Origin: a virus
DNA: 64,000 nt
Reading direction: 5' to 3' (one strand)
IMG/VR virus record: IMGVR_UViG_3300044811_000031
Span: 23,792-87,791 of that record
A model generated the notes under the pieces. That model made no database searches, was not told the origin of the DNA, and saw only the letters and a program-made list of their open reading frames with translations. Both the position numbers and the translations under genes were made by a program. Shown piece after piece: positions 30,475 through 60,026 of the stretch; the first letter of the stretch is position 1, and each line of letters opens with the position of its first letter.

Positions 30475-30500
30475 TGGCCCGGCCGGAGCCGGGGTTGTGC

Positions 30501-33235: not shown

Positions 33236-33305
33236 TGTCCTCAACAGGATTCGAACCTGTGGACTCCGGCACTAGCAACCGGCGCGCAACCGATGCGCTG
33301 AGGAC
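33236..33305 (-). ncRNA. Atypical compact tRNA-like RNA (central loop triplet CUA)
   Basis: Perfect acceptor stem GTCCTCA/TGAGGAC and T arm ACAGG-TTCGAAT-CCTGT; 5-nt D loop; CCGG-TTGCTAGTG-CCGG. Confidence 0.7.
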
Positions 33306-34863: not shown

Positions 34864-34916
34864 ATCAAGGGTCCGGCCGGGGACCAACCACGACGAAAAT
34901 ACCCGGCCGGACCTTG

Positions 34917-34997
34917 CTCACGGAGTGGGGCCCGAACCCACGTCTGCCCCCCGGGGTGCGGCCCCGGCGGCGCTCTGCCATGTTGAGCTATCCGTGA
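34917..34997 (-). ncRNA. tRNA-like RNA with elongated anticodon arm
   Basis: TCACGGA/TCCGTGA acceptor, canonical D arm, 8-9 bp anticodon stem with 5-nt loop CCGCA, T loop TTCGGGC. Confidence 0.7.
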
Positions 34998-35193: not shown

Positions 35194-35222
35194 TGGCCCG
35201 GCCGGAGCCGGGGTTGTACGTG

Positions 35223-56405: not shown

Positions 56406-57059
56406 TCAGAACGGGGGCTCGTCGCCCTCGTCCTTGTTGAACGGGTCCTCGCCACCGAGGAAGCTGTCGGCCTCGGGCTTGTAGTTCGGGTTGTCGGCCG
56501 CCGGGGTCCACTTGGCCACGAAGGTGTGGCCGTTGAAGCCGGAGCTGTACTTCTTGGACTTGCCCCGCTTCATCTGGAGCCGGATGCCCTTCTCCAGCGG
56601 AGCCAGGCTGCCCTCCGGCTGACCGAGCTTGACGGCGGCCTCCTTGCGGGCCTCCACGATGGCGTCGAGCATGGCGCCGAACACGTACGCCCGGCGGGTG
56701 CCGTCGTCGTCGGGGACGGCCTCCTCCTCGTTCTCCCGGCCCTTCCAGGTGATGCCCCAGTGCTCGCTGCCCTCGGGGATCTGGAAGTCCATCAGCACCT
56801 GGAGGGACGGCCGGGCGCTCCGCTCGTTCTTGACCTCGGAGTCCTTGACGTGCTTCCGGCCCTCGAACCACATCAGCTCACCGGTGTTGATGTCGGTGCG
56901 CTGGACCGGGTCGCCCCACGAGAGCAGGGTGCCGTCGAACTGGGCGCCCACCTTCGGGAACTTGACGGCCACCATGGAGGTGTAGTTGCCGCCTCCGAGG
57001 AAGTCGTCTGCTGCGTCGCTGGTGTCGGCGGGCTTGCCGCCGAACGGGTCTACTGCCAT
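56406..57059 (-). CDS. ssDNA-binding-like (OB fold) protein
   Basis: KF...G....G, DDDGTRR.YV, acidic C-terminal tail ending DEPPF. Confidence 0.65.
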   Translation of the reverse strand: MAVDPFGGKPADTSDAADDFLGGGNYTSMVAVKFPKVGAQFDGTLLSWGDPVQRTDINTGELMWFEGRKHVKDSEVKNERSARPSLQVLMDFQIPEGSEHWGITWKGRENEEEAVPDDDGTRRAYVFGAMLDAIVEARKEAAVKLGQPEGSLAPLEKGIRLQMKRGKSKKYSSGFNGHTFVAKWTPAADNPNYKPEADSFLGGEDPFNKDEGDEPPF

Positions 57060-57078
57060 GATCTTGGTCTCGCTTCCT

Positions 57079-57113
57079 GTGAACCTGTAAACGGGTGAAC
57101 CTGTAAACGGGTG
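57079..57113. repeat. Tandem 16-bp direct repeat
   Basis: GTGAACCTGTAAACGG x2 plus GTG. Confidence 0.85.
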
Positions 57114-57234
57114 CGGGTCCGCCGCGCAGCTACGACGTTGACCAGGCCCGGACTCGGCTGCCGCCTTCCGGCGGCCCAACTGCTATCCCTTGTCCGGTAC
57201 CTCCGGCCGGAGCCGGGGTGACCATGTGCCACCA

Positions 57235-57325
57235 GTGCGCTGACGGGACTCGAACCCGCGACCTCCGAACGACGGGCACTTAGGACCCGAGCGTCCGGCG
57301 CTCTTTCCATCTGAGCTACAGCGCG
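57235..57325 (-). ncRNA. tRNA-like RNA with ~12-bp anticodon arm
   Basis: Canonical D arm and GCGGG-TTCGAGT-CCCGT T arm; C1:A72 mismatch; arm CCGGACG-CT-CGGGT-CCTAAGT-GCCCG-T-CGTTCGG. Confidence 0.75.
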
Positions 57326-57334
57326 CCACGTTGA

Positions 57335-57601
57335 TCAGCGGATGGTGCTGAGGAACTGCTCCCACGCCACCGGCGTGAAGGCCAGTCCCGGGAGGGTGAT
57401 GTCCTTGCTGTCGCGGACCAGCACGATACCCCGGCTGGCGACCTCGACGCAGTTCTCGATGGTGGAGTAGCTCGACTTCCGGTACGCGGCTTCGAGACAC
57501 TCCCCGCCCTCGTTACCGCTGTAGCTGGACGCCTTGAACGCGGCTTCCAGGCAGGTGCCGTTCGCGTCCGAGTGGGTCGACTTGCGGAACGTGTCGTCCA
57601 T
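57335..57601 (-). CDS. DUF397 protein with repeated KSS.S motif
   Basis: FRKSTHS/FKASSYS/YRKSSYS, CVEVA, VRDSK, W..F. Confidence 0.85.
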   Translation of the reverse strand: MDDTFRKSTHSDANGTCLEAAFKASSYSGNEGGECLEAAYRKSSYSTIENCVEVASRGIVLVRDSKDITLPGLAFTPVAWEQFLSTIR

Positions 57602-57753
57602 GATCTCTCCTGGTCTCTCGGTGGATGAGCGGGGACGGATGCTTGCTGCTCGATCTTCGGATGGCCCGGAGACCACCTACGCCAGAGCATCCGTCCCTCT
57701 CCGCCCCGGTACCTTCGCCCGTCGAGTGAGTCGGGTCCGGGGAGTACCTGTAC

Positions 57754-57777
57754 AGCATACCCCGGTTTAGCTAATTC
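57754..57777 (-). promoter_or_regulatory. -10 element (GGGGTATGCT) with adjacent operator-like copy 5
   Basis: - strand GAATTAGCTAAACC-GGGG-TATGCT. Confidence 0.55.
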
Positions 57778-60026
57778 GAAGCCTTCGCCAGGGTGTCCTG
57801 CATCAGCTTGACCAGGGCATTGAGCCGGGTCATGCCGATCTTGGCGACCTCGCCCTTCATCTCCTGGAAGAGGGCCGACGCCTCCGGCCGCGTCGTCACG
57901 GACCGGGCGCGATCCTCATACGTGGGCTGCGCCGGGACGGGAGCGGGGGCAGGAGCTGTCGTACGCCCCGGGTTGGCCACCGGTGCCGGGGTGGGCCTGC
58001 TCGGCCGGGAGACGGCCGCCTGAGCCTTCTCCATGTCGACCACGGCGAGCAGCGTCTTGATGACCTCCTTGGTCAGCCCGGCGTCCTTGGCCTCCTGCCA
58101 GGCCGCGTTGCCCTCCTCCGGCGTTTTGACCGCGCGGAACTTCGCCTCCCACTGCGCCACGGTCGGCGGCCGGGTCACGGACGGGTGGCCCGTGGTCATC
58201 TGCGCGGCGGTCGGCCGGTCGAATGCCTCCGGCTCGGCATGCCGGATCGTGGCGGTCTCGTCGGACGTCATGTCCCCCAGCTCCTTGATGATCGCCGCTG
58301 CGGCGCCGGTCACGTCGGCCTTCGTCAGGGACAGCAGGGGCTCCGGCATCTTGGGGTCGCGGCCAGACCGGACAGCCGCGCACAGCTTGGCGTCCCGCCA
58401 TCCGGCGATCAGGTCGGCCGGGACGATGGAGCACCGAGCCTCGCCGTACGGCATGTGCATCACGATGCCGACGTCCTCACGCACGGGCTTGATGCCCTGC
58501 TCACTCAGCGGGCTCCATGCCCAGTGCGGCCGGTTCTGGTCGTCGTACACGACCGTGGCCACACCGTGCTCGTTGATGCCGTGAGCGTAGATCGACTCCT
58601 GGATCTGAATCTCCTGCCAGGCGTAGTCGAGCATGGCGCCGGACTTGACGTCGCCGATGACGTAGTCCCCGGCGTGGATCTGCACCCGGCGCCCCTCCAG
58701 GACGGTCTCCGGCTGGTCGCGGATGCACTCCAGCACCCGGTCGAACGTGCCGACGATGCCCTTGGCAAGCTCCAGCGTCAGCACGGACCGCTCAATGAGG
58801 TGCGGGACGGGACGGAACCCGGCGGCCTCCAGTGCGGCCAGGTAGACGGCGACGTCGGGCCGGTACTCGTCGGGGACGTCCTTGACAGTCTTGCGGCCGG
58901 ACTCGACCTCTTCGGTGTGCTTGTGGAGCTGGGTGCCCTTCTTGGCGCGGTCCTTGGATCCGGCGGCCAGCTTGGCCTGCTCCACGATGGAGTTGAGATC
59001 GTCCCGGCGCTCGCGGGCGACCTCGTACGCCACGCCGCCCTTGAGGATCCGCTTGACGTTCTCCATCAGGTCGGGGCGCCGGGCCAGCCCGAGAGCCGCC
59101 ATCCGGCTCTTCCACTGGTCCAGGGCGATCGAGTCGGCGATGGTCTCGGCGAAGGTCGTCGTCCGGGTCCACTTGGTCTTCTTGCCGGTGATGGGGTGGG
59201 GGCCCTCGTACCGGCCGTTCTTGACCGGCAGCTGGAGAGAGATGTGCTTCGGCCGCTCGGCCACGGCGGCGCGGGCCTCCGCGTCGGACTCGATCTCGTC
59301 CCCGCAGCAGTCCTGAGCCTCCCAGCCGCCATCTCCATCGGCCCGGATGACGTCCCCGGAGAGGAAGGAGGTGTAGCAGCCGGAGCAGTCCCCGTCGTAG
59401 GCGGAGTCGAACCACGGGCCCTTGCCGCCCTGCTCGGGCTCGGGGGTGGGGCTGCCCCCACCGAGGAAGTCGTCGGCTGCGGAGCGGGGGATCACGGTCA
59501 CCGTGGCACCGGCGCGGGCGGCCGTGCTCGGGTCGTCCGGCTCCTCCATGCCGCACACACAGAAGCTGCCGGAGTGGCCCTTGCCGTCGTCCCCGTACTC
59601 GAAGTCGTGGACGTGCTCCGGACCGTACAGGCTGTTCAGCTCAGCAGCCGCAGCCCGGGACCGGCCGTACTCCGCCTCGACCTCCTGCTCCAGGACCGGG
59701 CTGATGCCCTCGACCCCCAGCGGCCAGTCGGAGCCCCCGGGGCAGTTGGCCCGGCCGGACCGGTCCAGGTGGGTGCGGATCCGCTGGTTGGCGGTCAGCG
59801 GGTAGGGCATGCGGCACTCCTTGCAGAGCGCTCCTCCACCGTGGTGCTCGCCACCGGGCTCCCCCTCGTACGCACCCTTCGGGTGGCCGCCGGAGCCCGG
59901 GCACATCGGGTTCTCCGGAGTGATCTTCTTCCCGTTGGCGGCATGGGCCCGCAGCACGCCTCCGGCGACCAGACTCACGTCAGTCCGGGGGCACAGCGGG
60001 CAGGCCGCCTTCTTGGTCTCAGGCAT
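57771..60026 (-). CDS. PD-(D/E)XK (Cas4/RecE-like) exonuclease with Zn-binding N-terminal repeats
   Basis: RTTT, GTQLH, E, GTFDR, IGDVKSG, Q...YA. Confidence 0.8.
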   Translation of the reverse strand: MPETKKAACPLCPRTDVSLVAGGVLRAHAANGKKITPENPMCPGSGGHPKGAYEGEPGGEHHGGGALCKECRMPYPLTANQRIRTHLDRSGRANCPGGSDWPLGVEGISPVLEQEVEAEYGRSRAAAAELNSLYGPEHVHDFEYGDDGKGHSGSFCVCGMEEPDDPSTAARAGATVTVIPRSAADDFLGGGSPTPEPEQGGKGPWFDSAYDGDCSGCYTSFLSGDVIRADGDGGWEAQDCCGDEIESDAEARAAVAERPKHISLQLPVKNGRYEGPHPITGKKTKWTRTTTFAETIADSIALDQWKSRMAALGLARRPDLMENVKRILKGGVAYEVARERRDDLNSIVEQAKLAAGSKDRAKKGTQLHKHTEEVESGRKTVKDVPDEYRPDVAVYLAALEAAGFRPVPHLIERSVLTLELAKGIVGTFDRVLECIRDQPETVLEGRRVQIHAGDYVIGDVKSGAMLDYAWQEIQIQESIYAHGINEHGVATVVYDDQNRPHWAWSPLSEQGIKPVREDVGIVMHMPYGEARCSIVPADLIAGWRDAKLCAAVRSGRDPKMPEPLLSLTKADVTGAAAAIIKELGDMTSDETATIRHAEPEAFDRPTAAQMTTGHPSVTRPPTVAQWEAKFRAVKTPEEGNAAWQEAKDAGLTKEVIKTLLAVVDMEKAQAAVSRPSRPTPAPVANPGRTTAPAPAPVPAQPTYEDRARSVTTRPEASALFQEMKGEVAKIGMTRLNALVKLMQDTLAKASN

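What the first reader, a model, noticed from the sequence alone, without database searches (positions are those of the whole stretch)
57235..57325. tRNA scaffold with a doubled-length anticodon arm and a C1:A72 mismatch
Seen: canonical D and T arms, but the anticodon arm has ~12 bp with a small internal loop and a 7-nt loop CCUAAGU. The inserted segment is itself base-paired, which argues against random decay. Inference: it is unlikely to decode normally. It could be a decoy or inhibitor for anticodon nucleases or tRNA-sensing defences, a Y-RNA-like tRNA mimic, an RNase P/Z processing signal, or a tRNA with a mini-intron.
Basis: partly seen in the sequence, partly recalled or inferred. Interest (0 to 1): 0.75.

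Follow-up and report, generated by a model that had tools for sequence, protein, structure and literature searches.

The report
Non-decoding tRNA-shaped RNA in actinophage
A soil Streptomyces-type phage carries a well-kept gene for an RNA that has every part of a transfer RNA except a usable codon-reading arm, which is replaced by a long closed hairpin; look-alikes occur in other high-GC phages and some Streptomyces genomes, so it is probably a selected tRNA mimic (most likely an RNA-cutting signal), not a broken tRNA.

Summary
Window 57235-57325 (- strand) is a complete cloverleaf (Rfam tRNA 46.4 bits) with a 34-nt anticodon arm: 7 bp, a 2x1 internal loop, 5 bp and the loop CCUAAGU, which lacks U33. 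C1 faces A72, and the preceding G can pair with C73.

It cannot decode. No intron reading gives a normal arm.

It is not a one-off. Four other phage lineages (G005, G006, G008/G011, L165) keep the same tRNA body, with compensatory changes, and a 9-12 bp arm of unrelated sequence. Six of 401 Streptomyces genomes hold similar shapes.

In this phage the element lies in a ~0.54-kb insertion, together with a DUF397 (BldB-type) gene. All five relatives lack this insertion. In near-identical soil variants the element is unchanged, while the adjoining spacer is full of substitutions and indels.

There is no integrase, Ro60, RtcB or CCA enzyme, and no antisense target.

Best reading (about 45%): a tRNA-like punctuation element cut out by host RNase P and RNase Z. 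A trans-acting decoy or scaffold comes second. No RNA data exist.

This scan has reported similar non-decoding tRNA shapes in other actinophage genomes.

The parts
57235..57326 (-). tRNA-shaped RNA gene. G(-1) is at 57326, C1 at 57325 and discriminator C73 at 57235. No CCA is encoded.
   Evidence: Rfam RF00005 scores 46.4 bits. ARAGORN reports it. MFE cloverleaf. It is the best non-training hit of family model R1, at 57.2 bits.
57319..57325 (-). Acceptor 5' strand CGCGCUG. It pairs with 57236-57242 (CAGCGCA). C1 faces A72 as a mismatch.
   Evidence: Direct reading. The same acceptor, including G-1 and C73, is found in phage G005.
57300..57316 (-). D arm: GCUC-AGAUGGAAA-GAGC.
   Evidence: The D stem is invariant in 6 relatives.
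57265..57298 (-). Extended anticodon arm. Lower stem 57292-57298 with 57265-57271 (7 bp). Internal loop CU/U. Upper stem 57285-57289 with 57273-57277 (5 bp). Apical loop CCUAAGU at 57278-57284.
   Evidence: dG -17.1 kcal/mol, 12 bp, z = -2.45. Pair probabilities are at least 0.9.
57243..57259 (-). T arm: GCGGG-UUCGAGU-CCCGU. A 22-nt block is identical to the T arm of Streptomyces tRNA-His.
57335..57601 (-). DUF397 (BldB-type) gene, 88 aa. Its stop codon lies 8 nt before G(-1) of the element.
   Evidence: Pfam PF04149, E 8.5e-25. Translation. GC3 0.92.
57203..57217 (-). GC hairpin CCCGGC-UCCG-GCCGG, 17 nt downstream of the element. The two other exact copies lie about 5 nt upstream of tRNA-Thr and of a tRNA-Glu-like gene.
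   Evidence: 3 exact copies; 8 matches with up to 2 mismatches against 2.2 expected.
57060..57601 (-). Insertion of about 0.54 kb relative to all five related phages. It holds the DUF397 gene, the tRNA-shaped gene, the hairpin and a fast-evolving spacer with a 2x16-nt tandem repeat (57081-57112).
   Evidence: Alignment with L002. tblastn shows the P0002 homologue directly after the 751-aa homologue in L002-L006, with no DUF397. No tRNA there.
56406..57059 (-). Downstream conserved gene (P0002, 217 aa, no Pfam family). The insertion occupies its leader.
57771..60026 (-). Upstream conserved 751-aa gene, with a Cas4-type exonuclease-like middle part.

Best explanation
The element is a genuine, selectively maintained tRNA-shaped RNA gene that does not decode. 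It keeps the whole upper body of a tRNA: acceptor, D arm, T arm and elbow nucleotides. The anticodon stem-loop is replaced by a closed helix of about 12 bp.

It entered this phage with a BldB-type DUF397 gene, as a small insertion in the leader of a conserved gene.

Most likely mechanism (inferred, not shown):
1. The element is transcribed as part of the minus-strand operon.
2. Host RNase P recognises the intact acceptor/T-arm stack and cuts 8-9 nt after the DUF397 stop codon. Because of the G-1:C73 pair, the cut may fall one base upstream, as in tRNA-His.
3. RNase Z or 3' exonucleases trim behind C73.
4. This separates the DUF397 message from the downstream gene's message, as plant-mitochondrial t-elements do.
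5. A stable RNA of about 91 nt is released. The ribosome cannot use it because the arm is about 7 bp too long and lacks the U33 turn.
For: Shown:
- The tRNA body is intact (Rfam 46.4 bits). In 6 relatives 99.1% of core cells are paired, and 8 of 19 pairs have compensatory changes (0/500 shuffles reach this).
- The long arm recurs with unrelated sequence in G005, G006, G008/G011 and L165 (9-12 bp), in L159 and L127 (14 bp), and in 7 Streptomyces loci (10-14 bp).
- Between G005 and G006 the element is one of only two alignable islands in 4.5 kb.
- Soil-metagenome variants X3 and X4 show no listed change in the 93-nt element. The 174-nt spacer next to it carries 11 substitutions and 26 indel letters.
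- The element has the same orientation as both neighbouring genes. It starts 8 nt after a stop codon and sits 175 nt before the next start. A GC hairpin follows it.
- The phage has no integrase, Ro60, RtcB or CCA enzyme.
- No promoter-like site lies in the region.

From the literature:
- Known working tRNAs have 5-6 bp anticodon stems (PMC7609411).
- tRNA-like t-elements direct RNase P/Z cuts at mRNA ends (PMC1920247).
Against: - There are no RNA data, so transcription, ends and cleavage are all inferred.
- A mere cutting signal does not need a long arm or its preserved helicity. An ordinary tRNA would serve.
- The relatives sit in different places, often in long non-coding tRNA-array-like stretches. 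This fits free-standing small RNA genes as well as punctuation.
- A soil variant (X2) seems to carry a normal-length arm (5 bp plus the 7-nt loop CGAUAAC) at the same locus, so the long arm is not obligatory there. This rests on one 151-nt contig.
- The low diversity of the element in X3 and X4 could partly reflect recent spread of the cassette. The DUF397 3' part is equally unchanged in X3.
Confidence: 0.45

Rival explanations
1. Trans-acting tRNA-scaffold RNA. The tRNA body serves only as a processing and stability chassis. The variable apical hairpin, or the uncharged or charged acceptor end, is the active part. It would act as a decoy or sponge for a host factor that binds the tRNA elbow or acceptor, such as a defence nuclease or nucleotidyltransferase, HisRS or RNase P.
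For: - The body is conserved while the arm tip differs completely between lineages. That pattern is expected for a payload or for an arms race.
- Several such genes stand in arrays in G005, L165 and L208.
- This phage has a second non-decoding tRNA shape at 34916-34997.
- The acceptor is identical, including G-1:C73, in two unrelated phages.
Against: - No partner was found. Ro60, RtcB and CCA-enzyme genes are absent.
- No enriched sequence in the genome is complementary to the tip.
- G006 and G008 have A73 and a normal 1:72 pair, so the His-like acceptor is not a family trait.
- A decoy for anticodon nucleases is unlikely, because no anticodon loop is displayed.
Confidence: 0.25
2. Decaying phage tRNA gene: a former tRNA whose anticodon loop received a small palindromic insertion, now without function.
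For: - Relative G009 has a normal-size tRNA-Phe(GAA)-like gene with the same D arm and lower stem.
- The element is absent from the closest relatives at this locus.
- For this one sequence the arm is only marginally better than shuffles.
- The spacer next to it is clearly decaying.
Against: - Damage is confined to one arm. Every core position and tertiary-pair nucleotide is intact.
- The same kind of arm recurs in at least 5 phage lineages and in Streptomyces genomes.
- The element is unchanged in variants whose flanking spacer has many changes.
- The inserted hairpin is not a repeat found elsewhere in the genome.
Confidence: 0.15
3. DNA-level site: the long imperfect inverted repeat in a tRNA-like frame is a recombination or attachment site used to move small cassettes.
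For: - The element lies inside an insertion.
- G006 has a decayed duplicate of the element's 3' end about 370 nt downstream.
- The X2 variant switches sequence inside the T stem.
Against: - The phage has no tyrosine or serine recombinase.
- The spacer between the arms of the repeat ranges from 3 to 16 nt among relatives. That does not fit a recombinase core site.
- Compensatory changes in the acceptor and T stems indicate selection on an RNA fold.
Confidence: 0.05
4. Working tRNA after all: either tRNA-Pro(CGG) with a 13-nt intron at 37/38 (ARAGORN -i), or a Leu(UAA) decoder using the apical 5-bp stem and 7-nt loop.
For: - ARAGORN with introns calls tRNA-Pro(cgg) i(42,13).
- The apical hairpin has canonical 5-bp/7-nt dimensions with UAA in the middle.
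Against: - Removing the intron leaves a 7-bp stem, and no bacterial enzyme for such introns is known.
- The loop has C33 and G37. The host's UUA-reading tRNA-Leu (bldA type) has CUUAAAC.
- Only 4 TTA occur in 22,601 phage codons.
- Relatives' tips (GUUUGACA, GAGCAGUGAG, GAGCAACGGAG) give no common anticodon.
- The anticodon would sit about 7 bp too far from the elbow.
Confidence: 0.03

Closest known systems
t-elements of plant mitochondria and the mitochondrial tRNA-punctuation principle (Forner et al. 2007, PMC1920247)
   Same: A tRNA-like fold without decoding function lies directly beside mRNA ends inside a polycistronic unit. It is thought to be recognised by RNase P and RNase Z through the acceptor/T-arm half.
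   Different: t-elements are usually partial or degenerate tRNA shapes. Here the whole cloverleaf is intact and the anticodon arm is lengthened to 12 bp. Cleavage has not been shown. The setting is a phage of actinobacteria.
Phage T4 stable RNAs C and D (species 1 and 2) in the T4 tRNA cluster (my own knowledge, not checked here)
   Same: Phage-encoded, tRNA-sized, non-decoding RNAs associated with tRNA genes. They are processed by host tRNA enzymes, and their function is unknown.
   Different: No sequence relation was tested. The T4 RNAs are not complete cloverleaves with an extended anticodon helix.
Engineered 'tRNA scaffold' for recombinant RNA (Ponchon and Dardel 2007) and MALAT1 mascRNA / MHV68 TMER tRNA-like RNAs (my own knowledge)
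   Same: A tRNA body has its anticodon loop replaced by an extended stem carrying another hairpin. The body gives RNase P/Z processing and stability.
   Different: Those are artificial or eukaryotic/herpesviral. A natural bacterial-phage counterpart with a conserved family is not described in what I could search.
YrlA / bacterial Y RNAs bound by Ro60 (Rsr)
   Same: A non-coding RNA that imitates the tRNA D/T elbow. Some are encoded by actinophages.
   Different: In YrlA the 5' and 3' ends form the long Ro-binding stem and the acceptor-like stem is closed. Here the ends are at the acceptor and the long stem is closed. There is no Rfam match and no Ro60 gene.
Bacterial tRNA-His and initiator tRNA
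   Same: A possible G-1:C73 pair (His) and a C1xA72 mismatch (initiator). A 22-nt T-arm block is identical to host tRNA-His.
   Different: There is no GUG or CAU anticodon, no G1:C72, and no run of three G:C pairs above an anticodon loop. Relatives G006 and G008 lack both acceptor marks.

Membership tests
Canonical decoding tRNA (Rfam RF00005) | Cloverleaf with acceptor, D and T arms and conserved elbow nucleotides; score above the gathering threshold | tested here: met
   46.4 bits against 29. U8, A14, G18G19 and GUUCGAGU are present.
Canonical decoding tRNA (Rfam RF00005) | 5-bp (at most 6-bp) anticodon stem with a 7-nt loop, U33 and a purine at 37 | tested here: not met
   The arm has 12 bp with an internal loop. 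The apical loop CCUAAGU has C33. Known natural range is 5-6 bp (PMC7609411).
Intron-containing tRNA (archaeal BHB type or bacterial group I) | An insert whose removal restores a 5-bp stem and 7-nt loop with U33; a bulge-helix-bulge motif or a group I fold | tested here: not met
   No 17-nt excision gives U33 (direct reading). ARAGORN -i leaves a 7-bp stem. The insert is far too short for a group I intron.
tRNA-His | G-1 paired with C73 | tested here: met
   G at 57326 and C at 57235. The same is seen in G005, but not in G006 or G008.
tRNA-His | GUG anticodon in a normal loop; G1:C72 | tested here: not met
   There is no such loop, and C1 faces A72.
Initiator tRNA-fMet | C1xA72 mismatch plus CAU anticodon and three G:C pairs closing the anticodon stem | tested here: not met
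   Only the mismatch is present.
YrlA / Y RNA | Rfam match; a Ro-binding stem formed by the RNA ends; a Ro60 (TROVE) gene nearby | tested here: not met
   No Rfam match at E up to 1. No TROVE gene in the phage. The topology is opposite.
tmRNA | tRNA-like domain plus a tag reading frame | tested here: not met
   ARAGORN finds no tmRNA.
t-element-like processing signal | A tRNA-like fold lying between co-oriented genes, next to mRNA ends | tested here: met
   It lies 8 nt after the DUF397 stop and 175 nt before the next start, on the same strand.
t-element-like processing signal | Cleavage by RNase P and RNase Z at its borders | not testable with these tools
   No RNA run holds the sequence. This needs end mapping or in-vitro cleavage.
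Long-anticodon-arm tRNA shapes of high-GC phages (provisional family, model R1) | Intact tRNA core plus a closed 9-14 bp arm in place of the anticodon stem-loop | tested here: met
   57.2 bits with R1, above all ordinary tRNAs (at most 46.8). Arm statistics. Core covariation.
attP / recombination site in a tRNA frame | A cognate integrase or recombinase in the element | tested here: not met
   PF00589 and PF00239 are absent from the 87.8-kb record.

The most novel reading that the evidence does not exclude
The element belongs to an undescribed class of actinophage and Streptomyces 'natural tRNA-scaffold' RNAs. A conserved tRNA chassis gives processing and stability. A fast-changing apical hairpin, or the His-like acceptor end, acts in trans on a host factor. 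Here it was acquired together with a BldB-type DUF397 gene as a two-part moron that interferes with host development or defence.
Probability: 0.2. Interest if true: 0.8.

Novelty: new variant of a known kind. Interest (0 to 1): 0.55.

Why it matters
If these RNAs are made and processed, phages of actinobacteria would be using the tRNA fold for something other than decoding. It could serve as a portable cutting signal that lets newly acquired genes be expressed independently, or as a chassis for small regulatory or decoy RNAs.

That would extend the tRNA-punctuation idea from organelles to phages. It would also explain many 'tRNA-???' and 'tRNA-OTHER' calls in actinophage annotation.

The family is not separated from tRNA in Rfam 15, so such genes are currently counted as odd tRNAs or missed. 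The pairing with a BldB-type gene gives a concrete, cloneable 0.7-kb unit to test in Streptomyces.

Tried and rejected
- **Curated phages:** blastn of the region and of the element gave no match, or only generic T-arm matches. tblastn of P0002 gave none.
- **IMG/VR:** an exact 30-mer of the arm gave none.
- **Metagenome scan with the acceptor pattern:** it found only unrelated tRNA-Asn(GUU) genes with short inserts from peat and wetland samples.
- **Host DUF397 loci:** 80 loci were searched and none has a related tRNA-like neighbour.
- **Closest phage DUF397 homologue (L278, 69%):** it has no tRNA-like gene beside it, so DUF397 and the element are not a conserved pair.
- **Sequencing runs:** no RNA holder is listed.
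- **Hairpin insert as a dispersed repeat:** it has no other copy.
- **Antisense target of the arm tip in the phage genome:** no enrichment.
- **Imitation of the anticodon loop of the host's UUA-reading tRNA-Leu (bldA type):** the host loop is CUUAAAC and only UAA is shared. TTA codons are negligible.
- **A second, decayed tRNA in the 175-nt spacer:** only 10 bits with R1, so not supported.
- **Promoter and terminator consensus scans:** nothing found.
- **Partner or recombinase genes:** no integrase, resolvase, Ro60, CCA-enzyme or RtcB gene.
- **Pfam on neighbours of the Streptomyces and phage relatives:** uninformative.

Full report
**Setting.** The window is bases 23792-87791 of an 87,791-bp IMG/VR virus record. 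It has 68% G+C, and CheckV rates it complete. Its proteins resemble those of Streptomyces and other actinophages. The nearest cellular relatives of the adjacent DUF397 protein are from Kitasatospora and Streptomyces. The host is therefore a streptomycete-like actinobacterium.

**The observation.** On the minus strand, 57325 to 57235 reads as a complete cloverleaf:
- acceptor CGCGCUG/CAGCGCA
- U8 and A9
- D arm GCUC-AGAUGGAAA-GAGC
- G26
- a 34-nt anticodon arm
- variable loop AGGUC
- T arm GCGGG-UUCGAGU-CCCGU
- discriminator C

The arm is CCGGACG / CU / CGGGU / CCUAAGU / GCCCG / U / CGUUCGG. That makes 7 bp, a 2x1 internal loop, 5 bp and a 7-nt loop, with pair probabilities of 0.9-1.0.

Rfam's tRNA model scores it at 46.4 bits against a threshold of 29. 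It treats 23 nt as an insertion. ARAGORN cannot name an anticodon.

In addition, the base before C1 is G (57326), and it can pair with C73. This is the arrangement that marks bacterial tRNA-His. A 22-nt block of the T arm is identical to host tRNA-His.

Taken alone, the arm beats only about 97% of shuffles. The single sequence is suggestive, not decisive.

**It is not a decoding tRNA.**
- No excision of 17 nt restores a loop with U33.
- ARAGORN's intron mode proposes tRNA-Pro(CGG) with a 13-nt intron, but this leaves a 7-bp stem.
- The apical hairpin has anticodon-arm dimensions with UAA in the middle. However, it has C33 and G37, while the host's UUA-reading tRNA-Leu (bldA type) has the loop CUUAAAC.
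- The phage has only 4 TTA in 22,601 codons.
- Reviewed natural tRNAs have 5-bp, exceptionally 6-bp, anticodon stems (PMC7609411).

**Relatives.** Pattern scans of IMG/VR, followed by a covariance model (R1), found the same design elsewhere.

| Source | Acceptor | Arm |
|---|---|---|
| G005 (L140, 103 kb) | Identical to ours, including G-1, C1xA72 and C73; compensated T stem | 3-4 bp + 3x3 loop + 6 bp, with a 10-nt tip |
| G006 (L267, 101 kb) | Normal acceptor, A73 | Same arm as G005 |
| G008/G011 | Not compared | CCGGA-CCCCCAC-[GUUUGACA]-GUGGGGG-UA-UCCGG, 12 bp |
| L165 | Not compared | About 7 bp + 2x1 loop + 5-6 bp, the same layout as ours |

- G008/G011 are true relatives of our phage, with 43-57% identity in the 751-aa protein. 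Their element sits at another genome position.
- With R1, our element scores 57.2 bits, above every ordinary tRNA (at most 46.8).
- Across six sequences the tRNA core is 99.1% paired, and 8 of 19 pairs have changes on both sides (0 of 500 shuffles reach this).
- Arms of 9-14 bp are found in all 12 long-arm elements examined, most of them well below shuffles in energy.
- A pattern search of 401 Streptomyces genomes found 7 more such shapes in 6 genomes.
- Relative G009 has a normal-size tRNA-Phe(GAA)-like gene with the same D arm and lower stem. This suggests descent from an ordinary phage tRNA.
- G005 and G006 lack the 751-aa gene, so the family crosses phage lineages.
- Between G005 and G006 the element is one of two alignable islands in 4.5 kb.

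**Local context.** All five relatives (L002-L006) have the 751-aa gene followed directly by the P0002 homologue. None has a DUF397 gene or a tRNA there. The alignment with L002 places an insertion of about 0.54 kb in our phage. The insertion holds:
- the DUF397 gene (57335-57601, Pfam E 8.5e-25);
- the element;
- a GC hairpin;
- a spacer.

DUF397 is the BldB family of developmental regulators (PMC10294661, PMC6262351). The hairpin CCCGGC-UCCG-GCCGG has two further exact copies in the phage, each just upstream of a tRNA or tRNA-like gene. The closest phage DUF397 homologue has no such RNA beside it, so the two are not a fixed pair.

**Population evidence.** Contigs from other soil metagenomes were laid on 56900-57900.
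- X3 covers 57141-57470 with 6 substitutions and 1 gap, all in 57141-57229.
- X4 covers 56925-57380 with 19 substitutions, 18 of them listed, and 26 indel letters. All listed changes lie outside 57234-57326.
- So the element is unchanged where the adjoining spacer changes at roughly one event per 10 nt.
- A caveat: the DUF397 3' part is equally unchanged in X3, so recent spread of the cassette may contribute.
- X2 matches up to 57256 (inside the T stem) and then reads an ordinary 5-bp stem with the loop CGAUAAC, which again lacks U33. This hints at allelic exchange through the conserved T arm.

**Partners sought.**
- No tyrosine or serine recombinase.
- No Ro60/TROVE, CCA-adding enzyme or RtcB gene.
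- No genome sequence enriched for complementarity to the tip.
- No other copy of the hairpin.
- No consensus promoter or terminator.
- No RNA run.

**Interpretation.** What is shown:
- a selected, non-decoding tRNA shape;
- membership in a recurrent family;
- arrival here in a moron-like insertion inside an operon.

What is inferred is the mechanism. The position fits a t-element-like punctuation signal. The element starts 8 nt after a stop codon, has the same orientation as its neighbours, has an intact RNase P/Z recognition half, and is followed by a hairpin. Such a signal would free the DUF397 message and release a stable small RNA (PMC1920247 gives the precedent).

The preserved long helix and the variable tip are not explained by that role alone. 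This keeps a trans-acting scaffold or decoy role alive. Simple decay, a DNA site and a working tRNA are less likely, for the reasons given under the rivals.

**Earlier notes of this scan.** On other actinophage genomes the scan has described similar non-decoding tRNA shapes, one of them with a C1:A72 mismatch. I used these notes as leads only. The antisense and Ro60 leads were tested here and were negative.

Noticed in passing
window 57602-57770: The intergenic block after the 751-aa gene is 83% identical (104/126 in 57620-57745) to the same block in relative L002. That is far above the flanking proteins (57-60% and 44% aa). It is probably a conserved leader or regulatory RNA.
   Followed up: partly
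window 57081-57112: A perfect 2x16-nt tandem repeat (GAACCTGTAAACGGGT on the + strand) lies just upstream of the P0002 ribosome-binding site. This stretch is indel-polymorphic in soil variants X3, X4 and X5.
   Followed up: partly
window 30479-30493, 35198-35212, 57203-57217 (- strand): Three exact copies of a GC hairpin (CCCGGC-UCCG-GCCGG). Two lie about 5 nt upstream of tRNA-Thr and of a tRNA-Glu-like gene. One lies 17 nt downstream of the element.
   Followed up: partly
window 34916-34997 (- strand): A second non-decoding tRNA shape in the same phage. It has an intact acceptor, D and T arms, but a 6-bp GC stem with a 5-nt loop in place of the anticodon arm.
   Followed up: partly
window 33236-33305 (- strand): A tRNA with a CUA (amber-reading) anticodon scores 40.6 bits in Rfam. 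19 of 91 long ORFs end in TAG.
   Followed up: no
L214-L249 (metagenome contigs): tRNA-Asn(GUU) genes from peat and wetland metagenomes carry one to three short inserts in the D loop, the anticodon loop and the variable region. They look like archaeal multi-intron tRNAs.
   Followed up: no
L090:1689-2149 (Streptomyces genome G002): Four tandem copies of a 90-92-nt odd tRNA-like gene stand next to tRNA-His. Three of the four have an encoded CCA, and ARAGORN reads a 4-nt 'anticodon'.
   Followed up: no
L288-L294 (Streptomyces genomes): Seven long-anticodon-arm tRNA shapes in 6 of 401 genomes. All share the same D-loop design (AGUCAGGAA in six, AGUCAGGUA in one). Some have a frayed or extended acceptor helix.
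   Followed up: partly
L274:2495-2604 (G006) against L275 (G005): G006 carries a decayed duplicate of the element's T-loop/3' end about 370 nt downstream of the intact element, followed by a block shared with G005. It looks like an insertion into or beside the element.
   Followed up: partly
window 57147-57256 in soil run X2: A variant contig switches sequence inside the T stem. Upstream of the switch it encodes a normal-length arm (5 bp plus the loop CGAUAAC). This may be an alternative allele at the same locus.
   Followed up: partly
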